From positions 74,986 to 138,985 of IMG/VR virus record IMGVR_UViG_3300032312_000788: DNA of 64,000 nt; one strand, 5' to 3'. The translations under genes and the position numbers were made by a program. This stretch comes from a virus. Its lineage: Duplodnaviria > Heunggongvirae > Uroviricota > Caudoviricetes. Of this stretch, positions 19,099 through 57,083 are shown one piece after another. The notes under the pieces are model-generated. The model was not told the origin of the DNA. It was given only the letters and a program-made list of their open reading frames with translations, and did not search any database. The stretch's first letter is position 1. Every line of letters begins with the position of its first letter.

Positions 19099-19099
19099 T

Positions 19100-40600: not shown

Positions 40601-40747
40601 TGAGTGTAATCCTCTGTGGCTACGAGGTTGGAGTAATTCGAAAACTCTGAGAGGGAATAATATATAAGGTATTCGGGAACGTTGAGAATGCCTTATATAC
40701 CCAAAATGGTCTATAGCTGTTAATCGTGGATTCGATTTCCACACACT
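40601..40747 (+). ncRNA. tRNA-like structured element (147 nt)
   Basis: 5' TGAGTGT pairs with 3' ACACTCA; D-arm-like cctc-tgtggctac-gagg; canonical T-arm gtgga-TTCGATT-tccac; no canonical anticodon arm. Confidence 0.25.
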
Positions 40748-41327
40748 CAATCATTTAAGTATGCTCTTTGGAGTGTTTATCATCGACATCAATACCGAAG
40801 TATCTATGGCCATAGCTTACTAGGAGAGTCTCCTATTTATATGAGGGAGGAATTTGATATACTTAAAAATTTTTAATGGGCGGCCCATTAGATTACATGT
40901 AAAAGGTGTTATATGTTGGCAAATATATAATCCATGTTTGACTTGGGAGTTAACCCGCTCACCTCTTTATGAATAAAAAAGATTGGTCAAATTATCAGGT
41001 AGATAATCCCAAATATGGTGTTAAGTTAGTTTCAGAACTAACAGAAGCACAAGCAAAGACAGAATTGTGTATAGCTATTGAACTAATAGAAAAACTATTG
41101 GGTTGTAGTTATCAGGCAATTGAGATAGCACAAAAGAAGAATTACATTGTATGAAAAAACCGACATTACCATCTAAGCAACACCCAGATCAAAAAATTCA
41201 AGAAGAATGGATGAAGTGGTTGAAAAGAGAGAAGTATACATACGTAAAATATCTTGAGTTTATGTTGTGGCGAGATGCTTATCTAAAACTGAATCCTCTC
41301 GATTAAACACTAGACTACACTACTTAT

Positions 41328-42104
41328 ATGAAAGACAATTTGGGCGACCGCTGTAAGAATTACGAAAGTATTTATGAACATTACTTTCTACCAAAGACAC
41401 CTATTATCGTAAGAGTTGATCAAAAGGCTGGACACACATGGACTAAGGGGTTGGAAAAACCATTCGATCCAGATTATGTAACTTGCATGTTTGAATCCGC
41501 TAAAGAAGTAGCCAAACAAATACAAGGATGTAAAGCTTTATATACTCAAAGCGATGAAGTAACATTTGTATTAACTGATGATGCTACTATTGATACTCAA
41601 CAATGGTTTGGTGGTAGGCAGAATAAGATTGAGAGTATTACTGCTGCAATGATGACAGCATATTTTAATCGTAATTGGGATATAAAAACATATAAATATG
41701 ATCTCTTTAGACCCCCAGCGGTTTTTGATGCCCGTGCATTTCAATGTCCTAAAGATGATGTCGCTAATGTCTTCCTATGGAGAGTAAAGGATTGGGAACG
41801 TAATAGTCTTAATATGTTCTGTGAGCAGTTCTTCTCTCATAAGGACCTAAAAGGTAAATGTCGTGTGGAAAGACATGAAATGCTTTATAGAATTGATCAC
41901 AATTGGGCTACAGAATGCACTGAGCAACAAAAGAATGGTTCGTGGTGGGCTTGGGATAAGATTGATAACTTCAATCTAACTAACTATAATGATATTGATA
42001 ACTACATCTTCCAAGATGGAATTGCTTATGTGATTTCAAAGAAACTACAAGCAGGAGAAGATCTGTTTCCCGGACATAATAACGATCCTTGCCAAGATTA
42101 TTGA
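41328..42104 (+). CDS. Thg1-like 3'-5' polymerase (tRNA-His guanylyltransferase family)
   Basis: IIVRVDQKAGHTWTKGLEKPFDPDYV..YTQSDEVTFVL parallels Thg1 [35 protein letters not shown]. Confidence 0.75.
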   Translation: MKDNLGDRCKNYESIYEHYFLPKTPIIVRVDQKAGHTWTKGLEKPFDPDYVTCMFESAKEVAKQIQGCKALYTQSDEVTFVLTDDATIDTQQWFGGRQNKIESITAAMMTAYFNRNWDIKTYKYDLFRPPAVFDARAFQCPKDDVANVFLWRVKDWERNSLNMFCEQFFSHKDLKGKCRVERHEMLYRIDHNWATECTEQQKNGSWWAWDKIDNFNLTNYNDIDNYIFQDGIAYVISKKLQAGEDLFPGHNNDPCQDY

Positions 42105-42129
42105 TAAAACACTAAGATATAATACCGAT
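42103..42129 (+). promoter_or_regulatory. conserved gene-start motif
   Basis: TGATAAAACACTAAGATATAATACCGAT then ATG 42130. Confidence 0.5.
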
Positions 42130-42431
42130 ATGAAACAATACACCGTGATTTGGGAAGATCGTTGGATTTCTGGGAGTCATCATCATTGCTTAACTAAGAA
42201 AACTTGGATCGAATGCTCAAATATTGAAGAAATTGTGGAATCCTTTTACGGAGACGTTGCTGTATATATCTTCGAAGGATTCCAATGCACTATCGGAGAA
42301 GAGTTTGATCCATCTAGGGTTGTTAATCAACTGACGAAAACTTTTTCAATTATAAATTAACTTGACTTCATAAAACACTAAGCTAAACTAACAACATGTT
42401 CGAATCATCCTACCTCCACATATATAAAAAC

Positions 42432-42458
42432 GGAGGTATAGCTCAGGTGGAAGAGCAG
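42432..42458 (+). other. tRNA 5'-half-like fragment (acceptor strand plus D-arm)
   Basis: GGAGGTA-TA-GCTC-AGGTGGAA-GAGC with no downstream anticodon or T arm; inside a 26-codon mini-ORF. Confidence 0.25.
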
Positions 42459-42493
42459 AGTATAAAAGTTTTCTGATAATAATTTTTGATAAT

Positions 42494-43177
42494 ATGGATA
42501 ATAAGAATAAGGTAGAGCTACTCGGATTTTACGGTAGTGATAAAATCATCGCATGTTCAGCGTGGACCAGCACAAGCAGAAATTTATCACCTGATAAAGA
42601 AGAACGTATTCCCAAGTTGATTAAAGATCTATGGGATAATGGACACGAAACACCATTTGAAAAAGGTATGGTTCATTTCTTAGTCGATACAGATATCGCT
42701 TCACATATCCATTTACTCAAGCATCGTATTTCCAGTATGAATGCTGAATCCGCAAGATATAAAGAACTTAAAGAAGACAAGTATTATCTTCCTGAAGATT
42801 GGATTGGTATTGAATGCTCTAGTTCAATCTGGGAAGAAGGTGATTGTGAGTATTGGATTGATGTATTGGAGCAATACACCAAACAAGGTAATAATTTATA
42901 TCACCGATGTCTTAAAGATCTTGAACCAGTCCTTGGTCGCAAAAGAGCAAAGGAATCTGCTAGATTCTTTAAAACATATAATTCACAAATCCAAGGCGAT
43001 GTTTCTTTCAATATGAGAAGCTTTGCAAATTTGTTGAAACTAAGATACTCGGATCATGCACAAAAGGAAATCAATGATATTGCCAAGGAAATGCTTGATC
43101 TTGTTATGGGTATTAAAGGTAAACCATTTAAACATACGCTAGAAGCGTGGGATATTAATTATAAAACACTAGAATAA
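42494..43177 (+). CDS. thyX: flavin-dependent thymidylate synthase
   Basis: HETPFEKGMVHFLV..LKHRISSMNAESARY = ThyX RHRxxSxNxxSxRY signature. Confidence 0.7.
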   Translation: MDNKNKVELLGFYGSDKIIACSAWTSTSRNLSPDKEERIPKLIKDLWDNGHETPFEKGMVHFLVDTDIASHIHLLKHRISSMNAESARYKELKEDKYYLPEDWIGIECSSSIWEEGDCEYWIDVLEQYTKQGNNLYHRCLKDLEPVLGRKRAKESARFFKTYNSQIQGDVSFNMRSFANLLKLRYSDHAQKEINDIAKEMLDLVMGIKGKPFKHTLEAWDINYKTLE

Positions 43178-43186
43178 AATAACACT
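43161..43186 (+). promoter_or_regulatory. conserved gene-start motif (identical 29-nt copy also at 43927..43952)
   Basis: ATAAAACACTAGAATAAAATAACACT then ATG 43187. Confidence 0.5.
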
Positions 43187-43648
43187 ATGAGCATGACGAT
43201 CAACAAGGCACTTAAAGAAAAAAATCGAATCGCAGGACGTATTTCCAAACTACAAACACAAGTAGTCAAATACAACCGCTACAAGAAGGATTCTACTGTA
43301 GAGTTTTCTACGAAAGAACTATTCAAAAGTCTCCAAGAGGAGTGGGCATATCTTATTGATATCAAGTCTAAGATTGCCAAGGCTAATGTTGGTATTTCCG
43401 ATAAGTTGGTTCAATTAACTGAAGCAAAAGCAGAACTATCATTCTGGAATAGTTTCGGTAATGTTGGACCAGCGAAAGAAACTATTCAAGAAAGCAAATT
43501 TATCGATGGTAAGTATGTATTTATTGATACTGTGAATGTTTCGGAGATTACCACAAAGGATGTTCAAACAAACATCAATCGTGTTCAAAAACTAATCGAG
43601 AATCTGCAAGATGAGATCGATGAGTATAACGCGACTACAAAGATTTAA
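43187..43648 (+). CDS. hypothetical coiled-coil protein
   Basis: 153 aa. Confidence 0.35.
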   Translation: MSMTINKALKEKNRIAGRISKLQTQVVKYNRYKKDSTVEFSTKELFKSLQEEWAYLIDIKSKIAKANVGISDKLVQLTEAKAELSFWNSFGNVGPAKETIQESKFIDGKYVFIDTVNVSEITTKDVQTNINRVQKLIENLQDEIDEYNATTKI

Positions 43649-43926
43649 ACAACTATAGCAACTTGTCCAGAAGGTTAGCTACGATTGACGAATCGTATGA
43701 ATCCTTGCTCCAATGTTGCACTTTTTCCGGGAGTAGATAACAATATTACAACAACACATCGTAGCCTTAAGAAGCTGCAACCAATATACTGTTAATGTTA
43801 ATGATAACGCTGGATTTTCGGATCGGGTTAAAACTCAAATCTTAAAACTTAGTTGATCAATCATTAAAATTTAATCGTTAAACCTTAGCTTTGTTGTTAT
43901 GGAGTTATCGAAACCGGAATCATTTT

Positions 43927-43952
43927 ATAAAACACTAGAATAAAATAACACT
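43927..43952 (+). promoter_or_regulatory. conserved gene-start motif (identical to 43161..43186)
   Basis: ATAAAACACTAGAATAAAATAACACT then ATG 43953. Confidence 0.5.
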
Positions 43953-44498
43953 ATGAAAACAGATTTCAATTGGGGTGACGATATCATCGATTCCCGCGAC
44001 ATCATTACTCGCCATGAAGAATTACAAGACGAGTATAATTCTTTAGTGGAAGCACTGGAAGAAGCTAAGGGAGATCTTGATGATTTTCTTCGAGAAAATG
44101 ATACTGATCCAGACAGTAAGGATGAGGATGATGATTCGGTTGCGTTTATTAGACGTAGACTTAATGAACTTCATGAAGTTGTCGAAGAAGCACAAGAAGC
44201 TCTAGATCAATTCAATCAGTCCTTTGATAAGGATGAACTTGATCTACTCACTGAAGTAATCTCTCAAGGTGAGGATTCACCTGATTGGTCTTATGGAGAA
44301 GGGTTGATCCACGAATCATACTTTACAGAATATGCAGAACAATTAGCCAATGATGTATGTGAATTTCCTAAAGAATTCCAATCAGGTCAATGGCCATTCA
44401 ATCATATGAAAATTGATTGGGAGTCTGCTGCTCAAGAACTTCAGTCAGATTACTTTGATATTTCTGCGGGTGGAGAAACCTATTATATCAGAGCATGA
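43953..44498 (+). CDS. highly acidic protein (possible DNA mimic)
   Basis: 181 aa, very D/E-rich. Confidence 0.4.
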   Translation: MKTDFNWGDDIIDSRDIITRHEELQDEYNSLVEALEEAKGDLDDFLRENDTDPDSKDEDDDSVAFIRRRLNELHEVVEEAQEALDQFNQSFDKDELDLLTEVISQGEDSPDWSYGEGLIHESYFTEYAEQLANDVCEFPKEFQSGQWPFNHMKIDWESAAQELQSDYFDISAGGETYYIRA

Positions 44499-44813
44499 CA
44501 TACAAAGAACTATCAATCGAAGACCTTAAGAGTCTGTATTCTGATCGTCCCGGATTTATATTCGCTATTCAACAACCATCTTCTAAAGATGGATGTGAGA
44601 AGCTATATAAACAAATAAAAGACGCTAAGATCTGTGAATATGAACCAGATTTTATTAACATATCTCATGAGGGTCGTTTATATGCTTTTGTATACCCTGC
44701 GGATGTAGCATTCAAGTCTGCTGATTTTTACGCTTTTTCTAAGCAAGCGGAAGGTATGTTCTTTGGTATGTTTCAAGTTGATATTTTAAGCGCATTTTTG
44801 AAAGAAAACTAAT

Positions 44814-45194
44814 ATGGATGAAGATAGAATGAGTTATGTTGTAGGGTCTATATATGACATGGTGGAAGCATGCAATCTTTCTGATGATATGGAAGAATAC
44901 GTAGACAAGTATAAGGTGGCTGAAATCTTTTACAAAAGCGGATTATTGAGGGATGATGAATACGATTCAATTTGTGATTACTTCAAAGAAAACGATAGAG
45001 TCTTTGAAAGCATCGTAAACAAAACAGCAGACTTGGATAAAATGTATCAGGATAGACTTGATGCAATCGAATCTTTTTTATTTGGTGGAACTAGTAATGA
45101 AGCCATAAGCGGTATCATACAATGGATTGAATCACCAGACTGTGATAAAGGAGATCTAATTCGTTTAAAAGAAGCTATCGGAAAATATGTGTAA
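44814..45194 (+). CDS. hypothetical protein
   Basis: 126 aa. Confidence 0.35.
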   Translation: MDEDRMSYVVGSIYDMVEACNLSDDMEEYVDKYKVAEIFYKSGLLRDDEYDSICDYFKENDRVFESIVNKTADLDKMYQDRLDAIESFLFGGTSNEAISGIIQWIESPDCDKGDLIRLKEAIGKYV

Positions 45195-45262
45195 CATAAA
45201 TGATTAAACACTAAGATATAATAACTTCATCGATTTAATAAATTAACAAATCTGATAAACTT

Positions 45263-45703
45263 ATGGAATCACCAAAATTCATTTACAATCTCATCGCCTT
45301 CTCAGACTCTCATATTAAGGCATGGGAAGCTCGTAGAGAGAAAGAAAAGGAGTATACAAATCTGATCAATGGTATGACTCAAGATGAAAGAAGGGAATTT
45401 GGTAAACGTTGGTGGATTGAAAATAAATCTGATCCAAGTGATACATACTTCGGTAAGGCTTACCGTGGTTCTTTCAGCGATCTCAATCAACTGATTAAAA
45501 TTATCGAAGATCAAAATGATTGTTATGGTATCTGTGAATGTTACTATACATATCTTCTGATTGAGAAACACTATCTTAATTGTATTGATAGTGTATGTTG
45601 GTGGGGTGATAGTGATGAGATTTGGTATAAGATGGATGAAAACTATCAATACAAAAGAATTCCTAAGCCTGATTGTTTCAAACAAGTGGTTAGTTTTACA
45701 TGA
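45263..45703 (+). CDS. hypothetical Cys-rich protein
   Basis: 146 aa. Confidence 0.35.
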   Translation: MESPKFIYNLIAFSDSHIKAWEARREKEKEYTNLINGMTQDERREFGKRWWIENKSDPSDTYFGKAYRGSFSDLNQLIKIIEDQNDCYGICECYYTYLLIEKHYLNCIDSVCWWGDSDEIWYKMDENYQYKRIPKPDCFKQVVSFT

Positions 45704-46105
45704 TAAAAATTCCTAAACCACCATTTAAAGGTAAGTATAAATCATTTGGTGATGTGATTAAGTTATGTGATGTTGTGTATTACTTGGGTAGAAATAAGAT
45801 TTCTTATAGGTGCAACAATTTAGACACCATTAATCTATCAGACATTATCATTTACGATTTAGATATCGATTTCAGATCAAATAAACAATTTTTAGCCTTT
45901 AAGAAAAGGTTTGGTTAAATGGAACACGATGAATTTATAAGAGAATTGGACATTGCTCTATGGAATAAAGGAACATTCTTTAAAAGTGGATCAGCTTTAA
46001 AGGAATCACTCTTTACCGTAATTAAGAATTATCTTCTCAAGAAAAATCTTATCATAGTTTCCAAAGTGGAATGGGATAGATTAAACACTAAGACATACTT
46101 GGGAC

Positions 46106-46798
46106 ATGCCGTTGCTCACCACAAATACAAAATTAAAAAAGTCTCTGGATCTTGGATATCTCACATTTGGTATCCATCTTGCTCCTGAAAAATTATCGGG
46201 TTTTAATGTCTGTAAGAACTCTAGTGCTGGTTGTCGTGCCGCTTGCTTGAATACGGCTGGAATGGGTGCTTATTCATCTGTTCAATTGGCTCGTATCAAT
46301 AAAACGAAATTCTTCTTTACTAATAAGAATGGGTTCATGGAACAACTCATTAAGGAAATTTCTTCAGCTATCAAGAAGTCTGTGAAGAAAGGTCTTACTC
46401 CTTGTTTTAGATTGAATCTCACGAGTGATCTACCTTGGCATAAGATTAAGCATAATGGTATGACTCTTATGGAGATGTTTGATGATGTTCAATTCTATGA
46501 TTACACTCCTGATTTTGATCGTATGGTAGAATTCTTGGAGAAGAAGCTTCCTAAAAATTATCATCTAACCTTTTCTAGAAAGGAAGATAATGACCTCAAG
46601 TGTCAAGCTATTCTTGGAAGTAAGGGAAATGTCGCTATCGTTTTTAATGGTGAACAACCTAAGAAATTTAATGGTAAGCGCATTGTAAGTGGTGATGATC
46701 ATGATCTTAGGTTTCTTGATCCGAAAGGTTGCATCGTTGCCTTGAAAGGTAAGCGTCACGCTAAGATTGATAAGACTGGGTTTGCTTTGACTGTGTAA
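46106..46798 (+). CDS. phage Gp37/Gp68 (DUF5131)-like protein
   Basis: CKNSSAGCRAAC resembles the CxxxSxGCxxCY motif of that family. Confidence 0.3.
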   Translation: MPLLTTNTKLKKSLDLGYLTFGIHLAPEKLSGFNVCKNSSAGCRAACLNTAGMGAYSSVQLARINKTKFFFTNKNGFMEQLIKEISSAIKKSVKKGLTPCFRLNLTSDLPWHKIKHNGMTLMEMFDDVQFYDYTPDFDRMVEFLEKKLPKNYHLTFSRKEDNDLKCQAILGSKGNVAIVFNGEQPKKFNGKRIVSGDDHDLRFLDPKGCIVALKGKRHAKIDKTGFALTV

Positions 46799-46818
46799 CA
46801 CTAAATCAAGATAAACCC

Positions 46819-50633: not shown

Positions 50634-50694
50634 ATGTGGGATGGAAGGGTTTAGTAGGTTCTATCCCTACTAAACCTTTCGGGGTTGTATAATT

Positions 50695-51036
50695 ATGAAT
50701 TCAATAGTAAATATTTTAGGTGGATTTCGAATCATTATTGGATTACTATTTTTGGCTTTTGGGTGTTTCTTGGATTTTAGTCTGGGAGGCTTTGGTACAT
50801 GCCTAAGATTCATTAGTGGTCTTGGTGGTGCTTACTTAATACTTGGATATACTAGAAATGGTCTAGGATATGTCTTAGGTATGATTGTGGGGCTTATTGG
50901 ATACTCATGGGCTATCAGGTCTGGTAGTTTATCTGTATTTGATATGTTTTACGTGGAAGGATTTGCTAAATTCGCCACTCGAATTGTGTGCGCTTTTATG
51001 TTTATTCTTGGATTGAAGGATGTGAAAGAAAACTGA
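50695..51036 (+). CDS. hypothetical membrane protein
   Basis: Gly-rich TM segments. Confidence 0.35.
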   Translation: MNSIVNILGGFRIIIGLLFLAFGCFLDFSLGGFGTCLRFISGLGGAYLILGYTRNGLGYVLGMIVGLIGYSWAIRSGSLSVFDMFYVEGFAKFATRIVCAFMFILGLKDVKEN

Positions 51037-52155
51037 TGAAACACTAACATATAATCCTAATATGGCCGCTCAATATTGCACTATCACAGAATTGGAAATG
51101 GATGCTCTTCTAAAGCATGATAAAGGCTGGAGCAAAACCATTAAGGGTAATGAATATGTATATGCTTATCAAACTAAAAAGAATCCAAATATCAGTCTAT
51201 TTGTTTACTCTTCAATTTCTCTTAATGGTGTATCGAAGAAGTGCGGCACTGATGCTGTCAGGATATGTGCGGTTAATACAATAACAAACAAGGGTATCCT
51301 TAAAACAAAAAGAATCAATAGAGTTCCCGGTTGGGATGTTAGGCTCAAGGAAAGAGTTATGGATATGTTGAACCAAATCTTTTGATATGAACTTCAGAAC
51401 AATATCTGATTTCCCTCAATGGGTTCATGATTACAATCATTGGGGTTCACGTAAAGGTTGGCCCAAAGAATATCAACCCATTGCTGATGAGATCTATAAG
51501 AAAGCCGATGAAATAGCTGAGAAGATTAAGCAACCCAAATCTTGGATAAATATTTCACCATATACCCAAGGAGAAATCGATAATACAATGGGAGCTAGAT
51601 CAGATTTTTATGAGTCTTATCCAGTATTTGCCTGCTGTAAAGGTTATAGACCATCCGATTGGGATTGTGTATATGATTCCGAAATTGAATACGAATTTTC
51701 TAGGGGTGGATTGAGAGAAGCTAAGATCGGAAATTGGTATTTTTTTCTTGGATTTGATTTTGATTAATAATATGAAACGAGAAATAACTACAACAATTGA
51801 ATTGGATGGTGAGATTTATATCTTTCGAATTCAAAGAGAACCTAATGGAGAATTAACTATTACAACAACACCGGGAACTAATAAAAAGATTCAAGAAATC
51901 ATTGATACCCTTTTAGATAAAGCGTCTTATATTTTATGAAACCATCTACAGTAAAAGAAATCATTGAGAAGCTTCAACAACTTCCAGAAGATTTACCTTG
52001 CTTTGTTCGTCCTAAGTATTGGGGAACACTTAAATCTTATTGCGAGGCACCCATCCATATAAATGGTATAAGTGAAATGGAACCTATTAAAGATAGCGAA
52101 ATTCAAGAACATGTGACATTTTTGGTTTAATAAAACACTGCAACACAATACTGAC

Positions 52156-52518
52156 ATGAACCTGATCGATATGAAAATCATGACAATTAAGTTGCCAAAG
52201 ATTGAAGATATTGAATTTTCAATTGAATGTTTGGAAGAATATGAACATCCAAACAACTCATTTGCTTTGGATGATGAAACACAAGAAGAAGTTGTCAATT
52301 CCATCTTAAAAGATCTTAATAATGGAAACGAATGGGCTTGGTGTAGTATCCGTGTGAATGGATCATATAAAAATATCCTCAAGGCTAGTGATTATCTTGG
52401 ATGTTGCTCCTATGAATCGGAAGAAGATTTCATCAAAAATTCTGAATACTATGAAGATATGAAAGAAGTTATCTATCAGGATATTATCAAGCAACTCGAA
52501 TCACTTTCTATTGATTGA
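52156..52518 (+). CDS. hypothetical acidic protein
   Basis: 120 aa. Confidence 0.35.
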   Translation: MNLIDMKIMTIKLPKIEDIEFSIECLEEYEHPNNSFALDDETQEEVVNSILKDLNNGNEWAWCSIRVNGSYKNILKASDYLGCCSYESEEDFIKNSEYYEDMKEVIYQDIIKQLESLSID

Positions 52519-52717
52519 ACACTAAAGTAAACTACTTACATGAAGCAATACATAGTAACAATGAAATTTAATGTCTTTATCAATGCTGAAGATGAAGATG
52601 ATCTCAATGATAAGATCTTGGATATGGAATCCACATTCAAAGAAGAAGATGGTTCATTGTATGATACTGAATTGATTGGTATTGACACTGAAGAATATGT
52701 AGGATAAATAGATCAAT

Positions 52718-52836
52718 GGCCGTATGATGAAAAGGTAAACATCGCAGACTTTCTAATAGGGTATAAGTGAAATATATTATACCTTGTCGAAAATCTGCCG
52801 CCGAAAGGCTTCCCGGTTCGAGTCCGGGTGCGGCTA
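52718..52836 (+). ncRNA. tRNA-like element (119 nt)
   Basis: acceptor GGCCGTA/TGCGGCT (2 G-U); D-arm gatg-aaaaggtaaa-catc; T-arm cccgg-TTCGAGT-ccggg; a 10-bp hairpin (52757..52786) replaces the expected anticodon arm. Confidence 0.35.
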
Positions 52837-52848
52837 TCTCATACAATA

Positions 52849-53460
52849 ATGATTCATATCAATAGAAAAATCATTCCTGAGCAATTTTCGGTTGCTATCT
52901 CTGGTGGAGTTGATAGTTTAGCATGCTCTCATCTTCTTTTAACATTAGGTTATAATTTCAAAGCTATCCACTTCAATCATAATCAAAGAGAACAGAATCT
53001 AAAGATGGTTGATGTTTGTCGAAAGTTTTGTGATGACTACAAAATTCATTTGACAATTGGTGAATGTCGCGTAAAATACACTAAGAACATTGAAGATAAT
53101 TTGAGACAAGAGAGATTAAGTTTCTTCGATGAGATTGGTGAATCAATTATAGTCTGTCATCATCTAGGTGATTGTGTTGAACAGTATATTATGAATTGTC
53201 TAAAAGGTTGTCCAGAATATAAACCGATTCAACAAATTAGTGAGTTTGATAATTTTACTTTGCTGCGACCTTTTATTAAAAACAGTAAATCTAATTTAGA
53301 GGATTGGGTTGATAAAAGAGGATTATCTGGATATGTAGTAGTTGATGAAACCAATTCAGATAGTAAATATGAAAGAAACTGGATTAGAAATGAAATCCTT
53401 CCTAAAATCGAAGAACGAAGAGGGTTGGAGAAAGTCGTATTAAAGAAATTTTATTTGTAA
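52849..53460 (+). CDS. PP-loop ATPase, tRNA(Ile)-lysidine synthetase (TilS)-like
   Basis: FSVAISGGVDSLACSHLL (SGGxDS PP-loop); start trimmed to Met after the tRNA-like element; immediately upstream of tRNA(CAU). Confidence 0.6.
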   Translation: MIHINRKIIPEQFSVAISGGVDSLACSHLLLTLGYNFKAIHFNHNQREQNLKMVDVCRKFCDDYKIHLTIGECRVKYTKNIEDNLRQERLSFFDEIGESIIVCHHLGDCVEQYIMNCLKGCPEYKPIQQISEFDNFTLLRPFIKNSKSNLEDWVDKRGLSGYVVVDETNSDSKYERNWIRNEILPKIEERRGLEKVVLKKFYL

Positions 53461-53465
53461 TATAT

Positions 53466-53541
53466 CCTCCTATAACTCAACGGTCAGAGTAGCGGTTTCA
53501 TAAACCGTTAGTTACCAGTTCGAATCTGGTTAGGAGGACCA
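53466..53541 (+). tRNA. tRNA anticodon CAU (Met, or Ile2 if lysidinylated), CCA encoded
   Basis: hand-folded: acceptor CCTCCTA/TAGGAGG; D-arm ACTC-AACGGTCA-GAGT; anticodon arm GCGGT-TTCATAA-ACCGT; T-arm ACCAG-TTCGAAT-CTGGT; discriminator A; CCA. Confidence 0.85.
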
Positions 53542-53727
53542 TTTTATTGTGAGTGTTGTCATCAAAGGTTTAGTATTCCATGAATCCTTTGTCAATTCAT
53601 ACAAAGGTTTGGATACAATTCAAACTAGACGAAAACTGAAAAGATATTACACAAAGTCAGACCAAGATGCTATCATTAGATATCTGAAAGAGAATGGTCA
53701 CATAAAACACTAAAGTATAATAAGACT

Positions 53728-53958
53728 ATGTTGAAACAACAAAACATGACCCAACAAGAGATTGTTGAATGGATCTTATCCGGGAGAGATAATGATATTG
53801 ATAAGAGTGTATCTGAGGGATGTCGATATTCCCGAGAACAACTAGAAGCAGTTAATCGGTATATTGATTATATCGTTGGAGAACTGACAGATCCAGATTT
53901 AGCATATAATACTGAAACTGGATTTTTTGATTATGTTGGTCCTGAGTTGCCAGCATAA
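53728..53958 (+). CDS. hypothetical protein
   Basis: 76 aa. Confidence 0.3.
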   Translation: MLKQQNMTQQEIVEWILSGRDNDIDKSVSEGCRYSREQLEAVNRYIDYIVGELTDPDLAYNTETGFFDYVGPELPA

Positions 53959-53975
53959 ATAGTAATAGATTTAAT

Positions 53976-54050
53976 GGGAGTGTATCGGAACGGAATTCTA
54001 CTCCGTAGTACCGTAATGGATCGATGCAGGTTCGAATCCTGTCTCTCTCA
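53976..54050 (+). ncRNA. tRNA-like element (75 nt), possibly degenerate tRNA
   Basis: T-arm gcagg-TTCGAAT-cctgt; acceptor gggagtg/ctctctc (6 of 7); stem-loop acgga-attctac-tccgt gives anticodon TCT (Arg) but leaves no room for a D-arm. Confidence 0.3.
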
Positions 54051-54222
54051 CATTTTAAACATCCATGTTATCTAATCAATAACTAGTAGGGGTTGATATT
54101 AATCCTATGATGAAGTCGGGTGATTCCGATAAAGCAATGTGGGTAAATCCTCGTGATAATGATAGCGTTATCTGATGAGTCATGGAGCTAATAAGCATTG
54201 AAGTGATTCAACGAATTTCGAT

Positions 54223-54531
54223 TTGGTCAGACCATTCCTTTCCTATCCTATCCTATATACTATGAATCAAAAACTATACGCATTCTGGTCTTATGATCAA
54301 TTCCCATATTGCTTATGGGGTGAAGTTGAGAAGTTTAACGGTGATCTTGTTTATATCAAATCTTATATGGGTTGGTTTAAACCCTTTAAGATTGTGGAGG
54401 GAGAAGTTGGAGAGAAGATGATTAAATCCTTGATGAATATCGAATATGATAAAACTGTAGAACTTAAGGTATTGAATTCAAAATACGATAATCAATTGAA
54501 AGCTATTCTGCCTGAAATCTTTAAACACTAA
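54223..54531 (+). CDS. hypothetical protein
   Basis: 102 aa. Confidence 0.35.
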   Translation: MVRPFLSYPILYTMNQKLYAFWSYDQFPYCLWGEVEKFNGDLVYIKSYMGWFKPFKIVEGEVGEKMIKSLMNIEYDKTVELKVLNSKYDNQLKAILPEIFKH

Positions 54532-54545
54532 GTCATAATACTGAT

Positions 54546-54791
54546 ATGAGCAAGATGATCAAACTTCCCGATGGTGATTATGTGAGAGCATCTGATATTC
54601 TTAAAGTATCTAAACCTTATTATGATACAACAAAGGAACAGTGGATGTCTTCCATTGCTTATATCAATAAGATATATCCTGATACTGTATCATTCCACGT
54701 TTACGAAATGTCTAAAACCTTTGTGAGGACATCTGAAAAGGCAAATGTTTTCTTGGATAGATTTATCTCTAAAATCAACGAACTAGTATAA
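54546..54791 (+). CDS. hypothetical protein
   Basis: 81 aa. Confidence 0.3.
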   Translation: MSKMIKLPDGDYVRASDILKVSKPYYDTTKEQWMSSIAYINKIYPDTVSFHVYEMSKTFVRTSEKANVFLDRFISKINELV

Positions 54792-54920
54792 TTATGGAAT
54801 ACATTAAATTAGTAGATGATATTCTACGAAAAGCTTATGAAGTCATTGATTTTAATCATCTACCAGATGATCAGATCGATAAGTTTAAGGATTATCTGAA
54901 GAAGAGAATAGATAATCTAA

Positions 54921-55208
54921 TTGCTGAAATGGAAGAAAATGACGAGTAAAGATTTATCTCCGGGAGACTGGATCTCAGTTGATTGGATACCATATAAACT
55001 TTATGTTGTGGAAAACAACGAGACAACATTGAAGGTTAAATCTCCTGCTTGGTCTAATGGAGACTATATGATATTTCAACACTGGAGATTTAATTATAGA
55101 AATGGTAAATGTTGGAGTCTATTAGGAAAGTCGAAAGAGAATCCTTTCTATAATAATATAACTAAACTTACAGGATTTGTTCATCCTGTTGTAATGATCA
55201 AACACTAG
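54921..55208 (+). CDS. hypothetical protein
   Basis: 95 aa. Confidence 0.3.
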   Translation: MLKWKKMTSKDLSPGDWISVDWIPYKLYVVENNETTLKVKSPAWSNGDYMIFQHWRFNYRNGKCWSLLGKSKENPFYNNITKLTGFVHPVVMIKH

Positions 55209-55222
55209 AATAAACTAAGGAC

Positions 55223-55516
55223 ATGAGAAAGATCACTGAACAAGCAATCGAAGCATTCACGAGTAATTCAAACTTCAAGGGTAAAAACACTGAAGTTTCC
55301 AGTGATAGCTTTTTGAATCGTATGTGGCTTCATGGTAATCTTATTGCTGTGAAAGATCATATTAATGGAGTTACTAAAGTTAGTTTATGTGGATGGAATA
55401 CTCCAACAACTCGTGAAAGACTTAATGGAATTCCCGGTGTAAGTATTTCTACAAGTAAGGGACAGGCTTATCTTAATGGTAATCCTATTGATGATAATAA
55501 ATTTTACATCATTTGA
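55223..55516 (+). CDS. hypothetical protein
   Basis: 97 aa. Confidence 0.3.
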   Translation: MRKITEQAIEAFTSNSNFKGKNTEVSSDSFLNRMWLHGNLIAVKDHINGVTKVSLCGWNTPTTRERLNGIPGVSISTSKGQAYLNGNPIDDNKFYII

Positions 55517-55629
55517 TATATTAGAAACTTCGAATAATCCCAATCAATCGGGAAAAGTATTGAAATCGAAGGAATCGGGATAATACTACACCGAACCATT
55601 CTTATAGAACACTAAAATAAACTAAGGAC

Positions 55630-55947
55630 ATGCAAAACAACTGGACACCTGTTATTGAAGATATCATTAAGTGCCTACTTAATAAAGGTCTAACTCTACA
55701 TTCTGTAGATAATGGTGATGGTGAAGTATTGGTAGATAATGCTGATCAAGCTGTGGGTGAAATTGAAGCTACAGATGAATCCGATCTTTATGTTAAGAAT
55801 CCCGATGGTAAAAAACGCTGGGTCTATATTGTTCTCGGAAATCAACCAGAAGAAACTATCTGTGATTATACAGTAGATCCTCTTATTGATGAAGCTTTTG
55901 GAGACTTTACTAAGATCTGGGAAGATCGTGATGTTCCTAAAAAATAA
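55630..55947 (+). CDS. hypothetical protein
   Basis: 105 aa. Confidence 0.35.
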   Translation: MQNNWTPVIEDIIKCLLNKGLTLHSVDNGDGEVLVDNADQAVGEIEATDESDLYVKNPDGKKRWVYIVLGNQPEETICDYTVDPLIDEAFGDFTKIWEDRDVPKK

Positions 55948-56616
55948 GTTATATGACACCTCGATATCTAAATCAACTAAAGATTCATATGCTTTATGTA
56001 AATGAATCTCCAGAATTGGCTGATCAAAAAACTCAAGAGTATATTGATAAGTTCGATAAATTGGACAAGTATGATCGTATGACTGTTGATTATGCTTGGG
56101 AAATTGATGGATTTGAAAAATCGCTGGAACTGATAGATAAGTATGCAAACATTAGCTGATAGATTCAATAAGAGTTATCAAGATTTCGATCTTAGTGATG
56201 ACACCTTTAAGTATTCTCGTTTGATGGATTGGAGATATTATGTTCCTGATGAAATCATTGACAATTGGAAAATCCTACAAATAGATGAGAGATATTTGAT
56301 TGCGTTGACAGCTAATCATGCTGCTAGTTTAGATGATTGAACACTATAATAGTATAAGGACATGCAAACGGTCAATCAATACACTCCAATGAAGTCTGGT
56401 GATCAATTTCTTTATGAGAAAGATACACCACAATGCATTCCACTGAGAATGGTATTATGACTCTTGATAATCCTAAAGATTATCCTGATTACAAATACTT
56501 TGTAAGAGTTGGTGGAGGATGGAGAGGATTTAATAAGAAAGTTAATGCTAGGAGGTATTATAAACAAGATTGATTTAAATTCTATCAATGAAACACTACC
56601 CTAAAATGAAGACGTT

Positions 56617-56886
56617 ATGAAGAACATCACACTAAACGAAGCACTTAAACTTATTCAAGATTGTTCCGCCTGCATTATCGATGATAATGTTCTGGTCTAT
56701 CCATCATGGGATGCTCCTGATGATGAAGATTGGTGGTTGGAATTTCTATGGGAAGATGATCATAACTCTTTCGGTCTAGTCTTTATGAAGGATTGTGGAG
56801 ACATCCAATTCGATGGAACCAATCTCTTCATTAAAGATGAAGATGGAGATGAACAAATGATCACTCTGCTTGTTCCTATGAAGTAA
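56617..56886 (+). CDS. hypothetical acidic protein
   Basis: 89 aa. Confidence 0.3.
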   Translation: MKNITLNEALKLIQDCSACIIDDNVLVYPSWDAPDDEDWWLEFLWEDDHNSFGLVFMKDCGDIQFDGTNLFIKDEDGDEQMITLLVPMK

Positions 56887-56922
56887 ATGATCTAAGAATC
56901 TGGGTGTATCCACCCCGCAAAA

Positions 56923-56955
56923 TGATAGTGATAGCGTTACTATCAAATTTTCTGA
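56923..56955 (+). terminator. terminator-like hairpin
   Basis: 7-bp stem tgatagt/actatca, 9-nt loop, then AAATTTTCTGATAATTTT. Confidence 0.4.
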
Positions 56956-56960
56956 TAATT

Positions 56961-57083
56961 TTGAGTGTGGCGAAATTGGTAAACGCACTGGAGAAGAAGT
57001 AATAGGATAAGCGTAAAATAGCACTGTCCCGCATAAAAGCGTCTAACCCGGCATTATTATAGGTTCGAGCCCTATCACTCGAT
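56961..57083 (+). ncRNA. tRNA-like element (123 nt) with type-II-like D-arm
   Basis: acceptor TTGAGTG/CACTCGA (7 bp); D-arm GCG-AAATTGGTAAA-CGC (Leu/Ser-like); T-arm ATAGG-TTCGAGC-CCTAT; about 70 nt between D and T arms with no canonical anticodon arm. Confidence 0.35.

What the first reader, a model, noticed from the sequence alone, without database searches (positions are those of the whole stretch)
40601..57083. Four intergenic tRNA-like elements with canonical acceptor, D and T arms but a missing or abnormal anticodon arm
By hand folding:
- 52718..52836 and 56961..57083 each have a 7-bp acceptor stem, a good D-arm with GG, and a textbook T-arm (GTTCGAGTC / GTTCGAGCC). Each has about 70 nt of extra hairpin-forming sequence where a 17-nt anticodon arm should be.
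- 40601..40747 shares the same TTTGAGTG(T) 5' acceptor strand as 56961.
- 53976..54050 has the T-arm and a TCT anticodon-like hairpin but no D-arm.

They could be tRNAs with short introns or insertions that need the phage's own ligases after cleavage. Other possibilities are degenerate tRNA genes, tRNA-like structural or attachment elements, or decoys for host anticodon nucleases.
Basis: seen in the sequence. Interest (0 to 1): 0.6.

Follow-up and report, generated by a model that had tools for sequence, protein, structure and literature searches.

The report
Interrupted and rewired phage tRNA genes
A large uncultured T4-like phage carries four conserved tRNA-shaped genes that standard finders miss, including a leucine tRNA split by a 38-base hairpin exactly where relatives carry a self-splicing intron or nothing. 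This suggests a kind of tRNA intron not described in bacteria or their viruses.

Summary
In detail: all four elements are at the stated coordinates and all are conserved in related phages with compensatory base changes. They are three different things.

- **E2 (52718-52836)** is a tRNA-Leu(UAA) gene with a 38-nt hairpin insert between U34 and A35. Six such inserts (33-39 nt) occur in five related phages, in tRNA(UAA) genes and in one tRNA-Ile2(CAU) gene, always at 34|35. The loop halves CUU/AAAA and CUC/AUAA never vary, while the hairpin stems covary. Orthologous genes are uninterrupted (L016, L023) or hold a genuine group I intron at the same site (L025). Removing the insert in silico gives a canonical tRNA in 6 of 6 cases. 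Best reading: a small intron that cannot self-splice, excised by an unknown nuclease and sealed by the phage RNA-repair enzymes encoded in this window. Splicing is inferred, not shown.
- **E3 (53976-54050)** is a tRNA-Arg(UCU) lacking a normal D arm, with the same layout in four further contigs. Other relatives have an ordinary tRNA-Arg(UCU), one of them (L007) demonstrably at the same genomic position.
- **E1 and E4** are tRNA-shaped shells carrying large inserts. In E4, 33 nt are invariant while the putative anticodon varies. They most resemble T4 RNA C and D, whose function is unknown.

Interest 0.72; new variant of a known kind.

The parts
40600..40750 (+). E1: 151-nt tRNA-shaped RNA. It has an 8-bp closing helix, a D arm (CCUC/GAGG, loop UGUGGCUAC), a 7-bp hairpin with loop AAUUCGAAA, about 78 nt of extra sequence forming two hairpins, and a T arm (GUGGA-UUCGAUU-UCCAC). 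No CCA is encoded.
   Evidence: Fold z = -4.2. Homologues are in L005 (98.7% identical) and L026. Pair counts: 99.3% of cells paired, 7 pairs changed on both sides (4 of 5 T-stem pairs, 3 in the long hairpin), 0 of 500 shuffles as good.
52718..52836 (+). E2: tRNA-Leu(UAA) gene (class II, A73) interrupted in the anticodon loop.
   Evidence: ARAGORN intron mode calls tRNA-Leu(taa) i(36,38). An intronless orthologue sits at the same place in L016 1247-1332. Fold z = -5.0. The sequence with the insert removed is called a canonical tRNA-Leu.
52752..52789 (+). The 38-nt insert of E2 (UCUAAUAGGGUAUAAGUGAAAUAUAUUAUACCUUGUCG), between U34 and A35.
   Evidence: This is the only excision that restores CUUAAAA, the loop found in L016. 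The hairpin covaries: 100% of cells paired, 7 pairs changed on both sides, 0 of 500 shuffles as good. A covariance model built from 3 sequences finds two further members.
52849..53460 (+). TilS-like PP-loop ATPase (tRNA-Ile lysidine synthetase family), lying between E2 and tRNA(CAU).
   Evidence: Pfam PF01171, E = 1.1e-34. Homologues are named tRNA(Ile)-lysidine synthase by JGI.
53466..53541 (+). Canonical tRNA(CAU), probably tRNA-Ile2, the substrate of TilS (C4-G69 and C5-G68 are present).
   Evidence: ARAGORN; Rfam 67.2 bits. The identity as tRNA-Ile2 is inferred from its neighbour and from acceptor pairs recalled from the literature.
53976..54050 (+). E3: tRNA-Arg(UCU) without a normal D arm. 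Order of parts: acceptor, 2-3 nt, short strand (CGG), anticodon arm (ACGGA-AUUCUAC-UCCGU), 4 nt, partner strand (CCG), D-loop-like UAAUGGAUCGAU, T arm.
   Evidence: Rfam 33.0 bits with the D arm deleted. It is syntenic with the canonical tRNA-Arg(TCT) of L007. The same layout occurs in L035, L019, L022 and L003.
56961..57083 (+). E4: 123-nt tRNA-shaped shell (acceptor, D arm, 4-bp CUGG/CCGG stem, T arm) around a 56-nt insert. No CCA is encoded.
   Evidence: Rfam 32.5 bits. Homologues are in L008, L019 and L022. Pair counts: 100% paired, 5 pairs changed on both sides (acceptor 2, D stem 2, hairpin 1), 4 of 500 shuffles as good.
56999..57031 (+). Invariant 33-nt core of E4 (GUAAUAGGAUAAGCGUAAAAUAGCACUGUCCCG).
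   Evidence: Identical in the window, L008 and L019, although their helicase proteins are only about 60% identical (L008) and the shell differs. It resembles the E2 insert (local alignment, 3 of 2000 shuffles as good). No exact copy of 26 nt of the core (AGGAUAAGCGUAAAAUAGCACUGUCC) occurs in 185,579 prokaryotic genomes.
41328..42104 (+). Thg1-like tRNA 5'-end 3'-5' nucleotidyltransferase, 580 nt downstream of E1 (context).
   Evidence: Pfam PF04446, E = 1.9e-28.
13109..20021 (+). RNA-repair gene cluster (context, candidate exon-sealing machinery): cREC cyclic-phosphate-processing domain 13109-13636, metallophosphoesterase 13651-14376, RNA ligase 16646-18037, RlaP nucleotidyltransferase 19245-20021.
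   Evidence: Pfam PF20274 2.5e-17, PF00149 1e-07, PF10127 4e-16; PF09414 4.3e-11 and PF21189 3.7e-10.

Best explanation
The window is part of the tRNA and RNA-repair region of an uncultured T4-like phage of about 200 kb (rIIB, T4 baseplate protein, many homing endonucleases). The four elements are tRNA genes or tRNA derivatives of three kinds.

(1) E2 is a tRNA-Leu(UAA) gene carrying a 38-nt intron between U34 and A35.
- The precursor folds as a cloverleaf whose anticodon stem is prolonged by a C32/A38 mismatch, a 4-bp helix that buries the anticodon (U33-A37, U34-A36, intron U+1 with A35, intron C+2 with the last intron G), a small asymmetric internal loop and a 10-11-bp hairpin.
- The insert is far too small to be a ribozyme of any known self-splicing class.
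- I therefore infer that a protein endonuclease (not identified) cuts on both sides of the U+1/A35 pair.
- I further infer that the broken anticodon loop is healed and sealed by the phage's own RNA-repair enzymes, giving a normal tRNA for UUA, a codon this phage uses heavily.
- The insert may persist because it interrupts the target of homing endonucleases that repeatedly sit next to this gene.

(2) E3 is a tRNA-Arg(UCU), for the commonest Arg codon (AGA), whose D stem is replaced by a helix between a strand just 5' of the anticodon arm and a strand just 5' of a D-loop-like AAUGGA segment. The D-loop sequence and the anticodon loop are kept, but the backbone is threaded differently.

(3) E1 and E4 are stable tRNA-shaped carriers, probably trimmed by RNase P and 3' processing enzymes like tRNAs, whose working part is the insert. 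What the insert acts on is unknown.

Shown: existence, conservation, covariation, exact insert borders, orthology with uninterrupted and group-I-interrupted genes, and presence of repair genes. Inferred: transcription, splicing, the enzymes, aminoacylation and decoding.
For: E2:
- An intronless orthologue lies directly upstream of the TilS-like gene in L016. An intronless allele of the class-I-bodied form is in L023.
- The orthologue in L025 holds a group I intron at the same CUU|AAAA site (Rfam RF00028, 58.4 bits against a gathering score of 50).
- Six inserts occur in five phages, all at 34|35, including tRNA-Ile2(CAU) next to TilS in L020. There no uninterrupted tRNA(CAU) was found in the 14 kb held.
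- All six fold into the same architecture without constraints.
- The loop halves are invariant while the hairpin covaries (100% paired, 7 pairs changed on both sides, 0 of 500 shuffles as good).
- Intron positions +2 and -1 covary (C-G in four inserts, U-A in two).
- The tRNA bodies diverge but keep every stem.
- A model built from 3 sequences finds L034 and L020.
- Removing the insert gives canonical tRNAs in 6 of 6 cases.
- CCA is encoded in 4 of the 6.
- UUA is 25% of Leu codons, AGA 50% of Arg and AUA 21% of Ile.
- The window encodes an RNA ligase, cREC, a metallophosphoesterase, RlaP and a Thg1-like enzyme.
- Homing endonuclease genes adjoin the gene in L022, L019 and L025, and a zinc-finger ORF with no Pfam match sits at the same spot in L001.

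E3:
- It is syntenic with the canonical tRNA-Arg(UCU) of L007.
- Five contigs share the layout. The helix sequences are CGG/CCG (window and L035), ACGAU/AUCGU, CCCAC/GUGGG and CUGCC/GGCAG, and the GGA motif is conserved.

E1 and E4: compensatory changes in the acceptor, D and T stems and in the hairpins.
Against: - No transcript data exist. Neither splicing nor expression is shown.
- No candidate endonuclease was found. No bacterial or phage protein-dependent tRNA splicing is known (my knowledge; two literature searches found none).
- The predicted cuts (1-nt 5' stagger inside a helix) fit neither RNase III nor the archaeal bulge-helix-bulge rule.
- The invariant U33-U34/A35-A37 residues also form the basal helix, so part of their conservation could be structural.
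- In the window and L001 the whole E2-TilS-E3 stretch is 100% identical, so that pair says nothing about constraint.
- For E3 the long-range helix is weak on its own in each sequence (shuffle p = 0.12-0.23), and in the window it is only 3-4 bp with a competing register.
- E3 and E4 have no thermodynamic signal.
- In L008, E4 has lost its D loop.
- Only three to six sequences support each family.
Confidence: 0.55

Rival explanations
1. Unspliced tRNA mimics. The insert-bearing RNAs are the final products: tRNA-shaped RNAs whose anticodon is deliberately buried or replaced. They would act as decoys or sponges for host tRNA-targeting nucleases, for tRNA-modifying or charging enzymes, or as stable carriers of a small functional hairpin, as proposed here for E1 and E4.
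For: - E4 shows exactly this pattern: insert invariant, putative anticodon variable (CUA, CCA, CAC).
- The E2 insert resembles the E4 core.
- The apical loop AUAAGUGARAYAUAUUAU is conserved in three E2-type inserts.
- T4 RNA C and D set a precedent for stable tRNA-region RNAs of unknown role (PMC3014915).
- LeuRS does not read the anticodon (my knowledge), so E2 could still be charged.
Against: - It does not explain why the halves CUU/AAAA and CUC/AUAA stay exactly those of a working anticodon loop while neighbouring intron pairs covary.
- It does not explain why uninterrupted, group-I-interrupted and mini-insert alleles replace one another at one locus.
- An unspliced tRNA-Ile2 could be neither modified by the adjacent TilS nor charged, since both need the anticodon loop (established knowledge of TilS and IleRS).
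Confidence: 0.25
2. Scars of homing-endonuclease conflict. The inserts are remnants of degraded group I introns, or other insertions selected only because they destroy an endonuclease target in the DNA. On this view the tRNAs are dispensable and on their way to decay.
For: - The insert is at the same site as the group I intron in L025.
- Three different endonuclease families, plus an unclassified ORF in L001, sit beside the gene.
- L001 has a roughly 700-bp insertion with a 17-nt duplication at the 3' end of E2.
- L023 has a 5'-truncated copy.
- L008 E4 has lost its D loop.
- Phage tRNAs are accessory genes.
Against: - All stems of the tRNA body and of the insert are kept by compensatory changes across contigs whose TilS-like proteins are 73-77% identical to the window's.
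- The six inserts share ends and architecture, not random deletion products.
- There is no sequence similarity to the L025 intron ends (by eye).
- After the insertion in L001 the acceptor stem still pairs fully (UGCGGUC for UGCGGCU).
- The immunity idea is compatible with a working intron and is part of the best explanation.
Confidence: 0.17
3. Chance resemblance, or DNA-level elements (attachment sites, promoters, terminators) that merely look like tRNA.
For: - E3 and E4 have no folding-energy signal.
- The insert motif UAAUAGG resembles the -10/RBS part of the phage's own promoter-like motif.
Against: - Rfam scores above the gathering threshold and the shuffle control of the acceptor/T-arm scan.
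- Compensatory changes in every element.
- Orthology with real tRNA genes.
- No integrase nearby, and the inserts are not repeated elsewhere.
- Sigma-70 promoter and terminator scans are at chance level.
Confidence: 0.03

Closest known systems
Group I intron in the anticodon loop of bacterial and plastid tRNA-Leu(UAA)
   Same: - Same gene and exactly the same insertion point (between U34 and A35).
- The 5' exon ends in U, and the insert ends in G in four of six cases.
- A genuine member sits at this site in the related phage contig L025 (Rfam 58.4 bits).
   Different: - The E2-type insert is 33-39 nt with no P3-P9 catalytic core and no Rfam match.
- In tRNA-Ile2 the base before the insert is C, not U, and two inserts end in A.
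- It cannot self-splice by the group I mechanism.
Protein-spliced tRNA introns of archaea and eukaryotes (bulge-helix-bulge; EndA/Sen endonuclease plus RtcB or Trl1 ligase)
   Same: - Similar length (tens of nucleotides).
- The insert extends the anticodon stem and pairs with the anticodon.
- It would need an endonuclease and a ligase. The yeast ligase Trl1 is related to T4 Rnl1/Pnkp (my knowledge; PMC3400036). Whether the window's ligase (PF09414/PF21189) belongs to that group was not tested; a relative, L024, also encodes a T4-Rnl1-type ligase (PF09511).
   Different: - Position 34|35, not 37|38.
- No 3-nt bulges separated by 4 bp; both splice sites lie inside a continuous helix.
- The host is bacterial: TilS is the bacterial enzyme (my knowledge).
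- No EndA-like domain appeared among the roughly 56 window ORFs scanned.
Bacteriophage T4 RNA C (species 1, 139 nt) and RNA D (species 2, 119 nt)
   Same: - Encoded in a T4-type tRNA gene region that also holds a homing endonuclease.
- Similar sizes (E1 151 nt, E4 123 nt).
- RNA C ends in a perfect T arm plus a closing helix, with long extra hairpins.
- Function unknown (PMC3014915).
   Different: - No sequence similarity to the inserts.
- E1 and E4 keep a full 7-8-bp acceptor and a D arm.
- RNA D has no tRNA features in its fold.
D-arm-lacking mitochondrial tRNAs (for example tRNA-Ser(AGY))
   Same: E3-type genes lack a D hairpin but keep the acceptor, T arm and a normal 7-nt anticodon loop.
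   Different: - E3 keeps a D-loop-like AAUGGA segment, but places it between the anticodon arm and the T arm.
- It has an extra 3-5-bp helix stacked under the anticodon stem.
- It occurs in a phage of bacteria, where all known elongator tRNAs are cloverleafs (my knowledge).
Phage tRNAs that escape host anticodon nucleases; theta ribozymes next to phage tRNAs (PMC10879173)
   Same: Phage-encoded tRNAs with unusual features or attached RNA modules, tied to conflict with the host or to processing.
   Different: The known escape variants differ by point changes in the loop. Theta ribozymes lie downstream of the tRNA, not inside it, and no HDV-like match was found here.

Membership tests
tRNA (Rfam RF00005) | 7-bp acceptor stem closing the molecule | tested here: met
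   E1 has 7-8 bp, E2 7 bp (two G-U pairs), E4 7 bp (one G-U pair), and E3 6 of 7 (a U-U mismatch, kept in L035)..
tRNA (Rfam RF00005) | T arm: 5-bp stem and 7-nt UUCRANY loop next to the 3' acceptor strand | tested here: met
   Present in all four. The E1 T stem covaries at 4 of 5 pairs.
tRNA (Rfam RF00005) | D arm with GG in the loop at the normal place | tested here: inconclusive
   Met for E1, E2 and E4. Not met for E3, nor for the E4 copy in L008.
tRNA (Rfam RF00005) | 5-bp anticodon stem with a 7-nt loop, U33 and a purine at 37 | tested here: inconclusive
   E3 meets it (AUUCUAC). E2 meets it only after removal of 38 nt. E1 has a 9-nt loop. E4 does not meet it (4-bp stem around 56 nt).
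tRNA (Rfam RF00005) | Score at or above the Rfam gathering threshold (29 bits) | tested here: inconclusive
   E3 scores 33.0 bits. E4 scores 32.5 bits, but only with permissive filters. E1 and E2 were not reported at E up to 10.
tRNA (functional) | Transcribed, processed, given CCA, aminoacylated, used by ribosomes | not testable with these tools
   No CCA is encoded in any of the four window copies. Orthologues of E2 (4 of 6) and E3 (4 of 5) encode CCA; E1 and E4 homologues never do.
Group I intron | Conserved catalytic core (P3-P9) able to fold | tested here: not met
   The insert is 38 nt and gives no RF00028 match in the window. The L025 orthologue does match, at 58.4 bits.
Group I intron | U before the 5' splice site and G as the last intron base | tested here: inconclusive
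   U at -1 in the five tRNA(UAA) genes, but C in tRNA-Ile2. The last base is G in 4 of 6 and A in 2 of 6.
Archaeal/eukaryal protein-spliced tRNA intron | Bulge-helix-bulge motif with splice sites in the two bulges | tested here: not met
   All six precursors fold with both splice sites inside a 4-5-bp helix flanked by a 1x1 mismatch and an asymmetric loop.
Archaeal/eukaryal protein-spliced tRNA intron | Splicing endonuclease (EndA/Sen family) encoded by virus or host | tested here: inconclusive
   None among the roughly 56 window ORFs scanned with Pfam. Only 64 kb of about 200 kb was available, and the host is unknown.
T4 RNA C / RNA D | Sequence homology to T4 rnaC or rnaD | tested here: not met
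   The T4 locus L014 was in the BLAST database. Only 9-13-nt chance-level matches to the inserts were found (E above 1).
T4 RNA C / RNA D | Stable small RNA processed from tRNA-cluster transcripts | not testable with these tools
   Location within a tRNA and homing-endonuclease region is met. Stability and processing need RNA data.
tmRNA | tRNA-Ala-like domain with G3-U70 plus a tag reading frame | tested here: not met
   ARAGORN finds no tmRNA. Position 3 is C, G or A paired normally, and no Rfam tmRNA match was found.
Bacterial Y RNA (YrlA) | 5' and 3' ends in the Ro-binding stem, with the tRNA-like module closed at the acceptor end | tested here: not met
   Here the ends are at the acceptor stem. 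No Rfam match at E up to 10. No Ro or RtcB domain was found among the scanned ORFs.

The most novel reading that the evidence does not exclude
T4-like phages of bacteria possess a protein-dependent tRNA splicing pathway. On this reading:
- A family of 33-39-nt hairpin introns at position 34|35 of tRNA-Leu(UAA) and tRNA-Ile2(CAU), and perhaps the larger E4-type insert, is cut out by a still unknown endonuclease.
- The broken anticodon loop is rejoined by the phage RNA ligase and end-healing enzymes. These enzymes would then have a housekeeping substrate besides repair of host-inflicted damage.
- Alongside it, the same phages use a tRNA-Arg whose core backbone is threaded in a different order from every known cloverleaf.
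Probability: 0.35. Interest if true: 0.9.

Novelty: new variant of a known kind. Interest (0 to 1): 0.72.

Why it matters
- **A third way to interrupt a tRNA.** In bacteria and their viruses the only known tRNA introns are self-splicing group I introns. Short protein-spliced introns are regarded as an archaeal and eukaryal trait. A conserved 33-39-nt insert that occupies the classical group I site, keeps the anticodon-loop halves intact and covaries like a structured RNA would be a new case if it is removed. It would also give phage RNA ligase and Pnkp-type repair systems a constitutive substrate. That bears on the long-noted kinship between T4 Rnl1/Pnkp and the yeast tRNA ligase.
- **An evolutionary series at one locus.** It shows three states: an uninterrupted gene, a group I intron and a mini-insert, all beside free-standing homing endonucleases.
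- **A limit test for tRNA architecture.** The E3-type tRNA-Arg would show how far a bacterial translation system tolerates a non-cloverleaf tRNA.
- **A practical point.** Standard tRNA finders miss all four genes, so the tRNA content of uncultured large phages is under-counted.
- **If the RNAs are not spliced.** They would then be a new set of tRNA mimics, comparable to the unexplained T4 RNAs C and D.

Tried and rejected
- **Rfam, all families, on the region at E up to 10:** nothing but tRNA. No ribozyme, tmRNA, Y RNA or group I match.
- **Megablast to GenBank phages:** no match. tblastn of the Thg1-like and TilS-like proteins found only relatives below 50% identity, so there is no cultured relative and no annotation to borrow.
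- **Multi-copy mobile insert (MITE-like):** the inserts are not repeated in the window or in any locus.
- **E4 core in other genomes:** an exact pattern search found only the two IMG/VR contigs already known, and a 26-nt part of the core had no match in 185,579 prokaryotic genomes.
- **Degenerate pattern for E2-type inserts in IMG/VR:** one new hit, which was a coding-sequence false positive (L033).
- **Group I remnant:** no similarity to the ends of the L025 intron, and C at -1 in tRNA-Ile2.
- **RNase III or bulge-helix-bulge geometry:** the inferred cuts give a 1-nt 5' stagger inside a helix, which fits neither.
- **A pairing between the flanks of the E4 core:** the register is not conserved among the three sequences (worked by hand).
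- **A local D hairpin in the variable region of E3:** 3 of 4, 2 of 4, 3 of 4, none and none in the five contigs, worse than the long-range helix.
- **E4 as an amber suppressor (CUA):** the putative anticodon is CCA in L019 and CAC in L008. TAG stops are rare (2 of 72), but that alone proves nothing.
- **Sigma-70 promoter and terminator scans:** at chance level.
- **Distant relatives upstream of Thg1-like genes (L038-L054):** no E1 homologue, only unrelated hairpins.
- **Literature searches for short tRNA introns in phages:** nothing found.

Full report
**1. The observation**

Default ARAGORN finds a single tRNA in the window, tRNA(CAT) at 53466-53541. The Rfam tRNA model, at its curated threshold, also reports 53976-54050 (E3) at 33.0 bits with the D arm deleted. 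With permissive filters it reports 56961-57083 (E4) at 32.5 bits, with 61 nt where the anticodon loop should be.

Unconstrained folding gives a cloverleaf with extra hairpins for 40601-40750 (E1, z = -4.2) and 52718-52836 (E2, z = -5.0). E3 and E4 have no energy signal.

I also ran my own scan: a 5-bp T stem with a TTCRANY loop, followed by a 7-bp acceptor that closes 60-260 nt. It finds E2, E4 and the true tRNA, against 0 or 1 hits in 20 shuffles. A looser version also finds E1.

So the elements are real and correctly placed.
- E2 has a perfect anticodon stem and a class II variable arm, and only 38 extra nucleotides.
- E4 has a 4-bp stem around 56 nt.
- E1 carries its extra sequence in the variable-region position.

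**2. Context**

All genes run on the + strand and GC is 34%. Pfam gives the following:

| Coordinates | Domain |
|---|---|
| 571-1305 | T4 baseplate protein |
| 4416-5186 | GIY-YIG homing endonuclease |
| 13109-13636 | cREC cyclic-phosphate-processing domain |
| 13651-14376 | metallophosphoesterase |
| 16646-18037 | RNA ligase (PF09414 + PF21189) |
| 18034-19098 | LAGLIDADG homing endonuclease |
| 19245-20021 | RlaP nucleotidyltransferase |
| 23518-24495 | HNH-type homing endonuclease |
| 41328-42104 | Thg1-like enzyme, 580 nt after E1 |
| 52849-53460 | TilS-like PP-loop ATPase, between E2 and tRNA(CAT) |

The 332-aa ORF at 39241-40239 lies in the position that, in relative L026, is occupied by a 332-aa gene carrying rIIB (PF26926). 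Pfam itself found nothing in the window ORF.

The phage has no close cultured relative. Relatives are uncultured contigs of about 200 kb.

**3. E2 is an interrupted tRNA-Leu(UAA)**

From the sequence alone, the only excision that leaves a 7-nt loop of tRNA type is GCAGA-CUU[38 nt]AAAA-UCUGC. That gives anticodon UAA in a class II body with A73.

This was then confirmed independently. In L016 (TilS-like protein 76% identical) the same position, directly upstream of the TilS-like gene, holds an ordinary tRNA-Leu(TAA) with the loop CUUAAAA.

Looking up contigs that encode TilS-like homologues gave five more inserts:

| Contig | Coordinates | Host tRNA | Insert |
|---|---|---|---|
| L022 | 1873-1996 | tRNA(UAA), class II body | 38 nt |
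| L035 | 589-713 | tRNA(UAA), class II body | 38 nt |
| L034 | 1159-1274 | tRNA(UAA), class I body | 39 nt |
| L020 | 3305-3414 | tRNA(UAA), class I body | 33 nt |
| L020 | 4047-4160 | tRNA-Ile2(CAU) | 39 nt, CUC\|...\|AUAA |

All six inserts lie between positions 34 and 35. L023 carries an uninterrupted, 5'-truncated allele of the L034-type gene (AUUGACUUAAAAUCAAU).

In L025 (TilS-like protein 60% identical) the homologous tRNA-Leu(UAA) holds an insert of about 211 nt at the same CUU|AAAA site. That insert matches Rfam Intron_gpI at 58.4 bits, above the gathering score of 50.

**4. Anatomy and constraint of the insert**

All six precursors fold, without constraints, into the same shape:
- a cloverleaf with the 5-bp anticodon stem;
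- a C32/A38 mismatch;
- a 4-5-bp basal helix (U33-A37, N34-A36, intron +1 U with A35, intron +2 with the last intron base);
- a small asymmetric internal loop;
- a hairpin of about 8-12 bp.

On the three equal-length sequences, all 57 cells pair and 7 of 19 pairs change on both sides. No shuffle of 500 and no slid register comes close. A covariance model built from those three finds L034 (34 bits) and L020 (26 bits), which it was not trained on.

The exon residues of the loop (C32 U33 U34 / A35-A38, and CUC/AUAA in Ile2) never vary. The adjacent intron pair does switch, from C-G to U-A. The tRNA bodies differ at many stem positions but always in a compensatory way. Four of the six genes encode CCA. 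Deleting the insert in silico yields a tRNA that default ARAGORN accepts in 6 of 6 cases.

In L020 the two tRNAs found flanking the TilS-like gene both carry inserts, and no uninterrupted tRNA(CAU) was found in the 14 kb held. An unspliced tRNA-Ile2 could serve neither TilS nor IleRS, since both need the anticodon loop (established knowledge). UUA, AUA and AGA are heavily used codons here, at 25%, 21% and 50% of their families.

Taken together this favours an intron that is removed. It cannot be a group I intron: it is 38 nt with no catalytic core, the base at -1 is C in Ile2, and two inserts end in A. It has no bulge-helix-bulge motif. The inferred cuts flank the +1U/A35 pair with a 1-nt 5' stagger, which is not RNase III geometry.

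I therefore infer excision by an unidentified protein nuclease, followed by sealing of what is in effect a broken anticodon loop by the RNA-repair enzymes encoded in the window. None of this is shown.

**5. Link to homing endonucleases**

Several mobile genes sit next to tRNA-Leu in relatives:
- In L001 (the E2-to-E3 stretch is 100% identical to the window) a segment of about 700 bp lies after the 3' acceptor strand of E2, with a 17-nt duplication. It carries a reverse-strand zinc-finger ORF with no Pfam match. The acceptor still pairs fully (UGCGGUC in place of UGCGGCU).
- L022 has an HNH_3 gene, L019 a LAGLIDADG gene and L025 an HNH_2 gene at the same spot.

An insert at the anticodon loop would interrupt a target in the uninterrupted gene. 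This is the logic described for ORF-less introns that cooperate with free-standing endonucleases (my knowledge). It may explain why such inserts persist. It does not remove the need for splicing if the tRNA is to work.

**6. E3 is a conserved tRNA-Arg(UCU) with an unusual core**

E3 lies between the same two ORFs as a canonical tRNA-Arg(TCT) in L007, with the same loop (UUCUAC). L034 also has a canonical tRNA-Arg(TCT); its position relative to these ORFs was not compared.

The E3 layout recurs in L035, L019, L022 and L003. The order of parts is: acceptor, 2-3 nt, a short strand, 0-1 nt, the anticodon arm, a linker of 4-22 nt, the complementary strand, then a segment of about 10-17 nt (12 nt in the window) beginning AAUGGA, AAUUGGA, AAGGA or CAGGA, then the T arm. 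The canonical D loop in L007 reads AAUGGAUA.

The helix is CGG/CCG (window and L035), ACGAU/AUCGU, CCCAC/GUGGG or CUGCC/GGCAG. The strand before the anticodon arm behaves like the 3' strand of a D stem, joined to the anticodon stem by one base as at position 26. The strand before AAUGGA behaves like the 5' strand followed by the D loop.

So the helices and the D loop could occupy their usual places while the backbone runs in a different order. The neighbours brought together (9 with 22, 45 with 10, 21 with 48/49) are close in the canonical fold (my knowledge), so this is sterically plausible.

Support is moderate only:
- Each helix alone has shuffle p = 0.12-0.23.
- The window's own version is 3-4 bp with a competing register.
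- The MFE folds disagree with one another.

Four of the five contigs encode CCA, and all keep discriminator A and GGA. A20 is an ArgRS identity element (my knowledge).

**7. E4 and E1**

E4 homologues lie upstream of the same helicase gene in L008 and L019, and a more distant copy is in L022. L007 and L020 lack it.

The shell covaries: two acceptor pairs, two D-stem pairs and one pair of a small hairpin change on both sides, all cells pair, and 4 of 500 shuffles do as well. Yet 33 nt of the insert (56999-57031) are identical in all three. The residues ARAGORN reads as the anticodon are CUA, CCA and CAC, and L008 has lost its D loop.

This is the opposite of the E2 pattern, so the insert, not the decoding function, is what is kept. 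The core resembles the E2 insert (UAAUAGG..AUAAG.G.AAAUA; 3 of 2000 shuffles score as well). This hints at a shared protein-binding or processing module.

E1 is conserved in L005 and L026. Four of its five T-stem pairs and three pairs of the long hairpin change on both sides (0 of 500 shuffles as good). Its 9-nt loop keeps UUCGAAA. Neither E1 nor E4 ever encodes CCA.

The closest precedent is T4 RNA C and D, which are encoded in the T4 tRNA cluster beside segB. RNA C ends in a perfect T arm and a closing helix. Their roles are still unknown (PMC3014915).

**8. Verdict**

The finding is real and more interesting than 'odd tRNAs'. It is three classes of non-standard tRNA gene, each conserved. 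The E2 class is best read as a new small tRNA intron of phages (confidence about 0.5 that it is spliced). E3 is a non-cloverleaf tRNA-Arg. E1 and E4 are tRNA-shaped carriers. Everything beyond sequence, structure and conservation is inference, and RNA data would decide it quickly.

Noticed in passing
window 52849-53541: A TilS-like lysidine synthetase gene is followed 6 nt later by a tRNA(CAU) that has C4-G69 and C5-G68. This looks like a phage-borne enzyme-plus-substrate pair for reading AUA (21% of Ile codons). The pair is conserved in about 15 relatives, with very different tRNA(CAU) bodies.
   Followed up: partly
window 13109-20021 (also 21401-22090, 29003-29587, 30063-30722, 33096-33629): The window holds a dense RNA-repair and nucleotide-conflict gene set: cREC, metallophosphoesterase, RNA ligase with an N-terminal OB domain, RlaP, histidine phosphatase, HD, a second metallophosphoesterase and NADAR. 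A LAGLIDADG gene is wedged after the ligase.
   Followed up: partly
window, 12 sites on the + strand (e.g. 25011, 38940, 42107, 49133, 53705, 57306): The motif AAACACTA-N3-9-TANAATA occurs 12 times, against 0.02 expected. It always lies just upstream of a gene start and is also seen in L007. It is probably a phage-specific promoter joined to the ribosome-binding region. None lies directly upstream of E1, E2 or E4.
   Followed up: partly
L001 5290-5989 (the same segment in L002): About 700 bp are inserted at the 3' end of the E2 orthologue, with a 17-nt direct repeat (TTCGAGTCCGGGTGCGG). The segment carries a reverse-strand 219-aa ORF with CxxC motifs and no Pfam match. The interrupted acceptor strand is replaced by one that still pairs.
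   Followed up: partly
L025 4742-5037: tRNA-Leu(UAA) with a group I intron of about 211 nt and no ORF (Rfam 58.4 bits) in a related phage contig. An HNH_2 gene lies about 250 nt downstream. This arrangement suggests an intron and a free-standing endonuclease working together.
   Followed up: partly
window 40751-40968; L026 about 3375-3595: The roughly 220 nt of non-coding DNA after E1 is conserved in L026. It contains several perfect small hairpins (GGAGAGUCUCC, AAUGGGCGGCCCAUU, UAUGGCCAUA). It may be another structured RNA or a set of protein-binding sites.
   Followed up: no
L015 1030-1123; L019 1466-1558: These are tRNA(CAU) genes of 93-94 nt with a 21-nt hairpin in the variable region, unusual for a tRNA-Ile2/Met type. 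Their acceptor strand (AUGAGUG in L015) resembles that of E1 and E4. Only the anticodon arm is shared with the window's tRNA(CAU), which suggests modular exchange between tRNA genes.
   Followed up: no
L004 9198-9344: A distant phage (TilS-like protein 27% identical) has a 147-nt tRNA-like gene with an encoded CCA inside a cluster of 12 tRNAs (Rfam tRNA 39.7 bits). About 70 nt are inserted after the D arm. I could not resolve its structure.
   Followed up: no
window 54156-54173 and 56921-56941: Two similar hairpins with the loop GAUAGCG (GATAA-TGATAGCG-TTATC and GATAGT-GATAGCG-TTACTATC). One lies about 100 nt after E3 and the other about 20 nt before E4.
   Followed up: no
window 19749-19761 versus 57007-57019: 13 nt of the invariant E4 core (AUAAGCGUAAAAU) are perfectly complementary to the + strand, and so to the mRNA, inside the RlaP gene. 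In a 64-kb window this is borderline chance (BLAST E = 0.13).
   Followed up: no
L042 1851-1924; L043: In more distant relatives a tRNA-His(GTG) and a tRNA-Ser(GCT) (L042), or the tRNA-Ser alone (L043), lie 450-650 nt upstream of the Thg1-like gene. In L042 this is the natural substrate next to its enzyme. In the window, E1 lies at a similar distance from the Thg1-like gene.
   Followed up: no
window, 72 ORFs of at least 100 aa: Stop codon use is TAA 42, TGA 28 and TAG only 2. This is noted because ARAGORN reads E4 as a CUA-anticodon gene. The putative anticodon is not conserved in relatives, so I draw no conclusion.
   Followed up: partly
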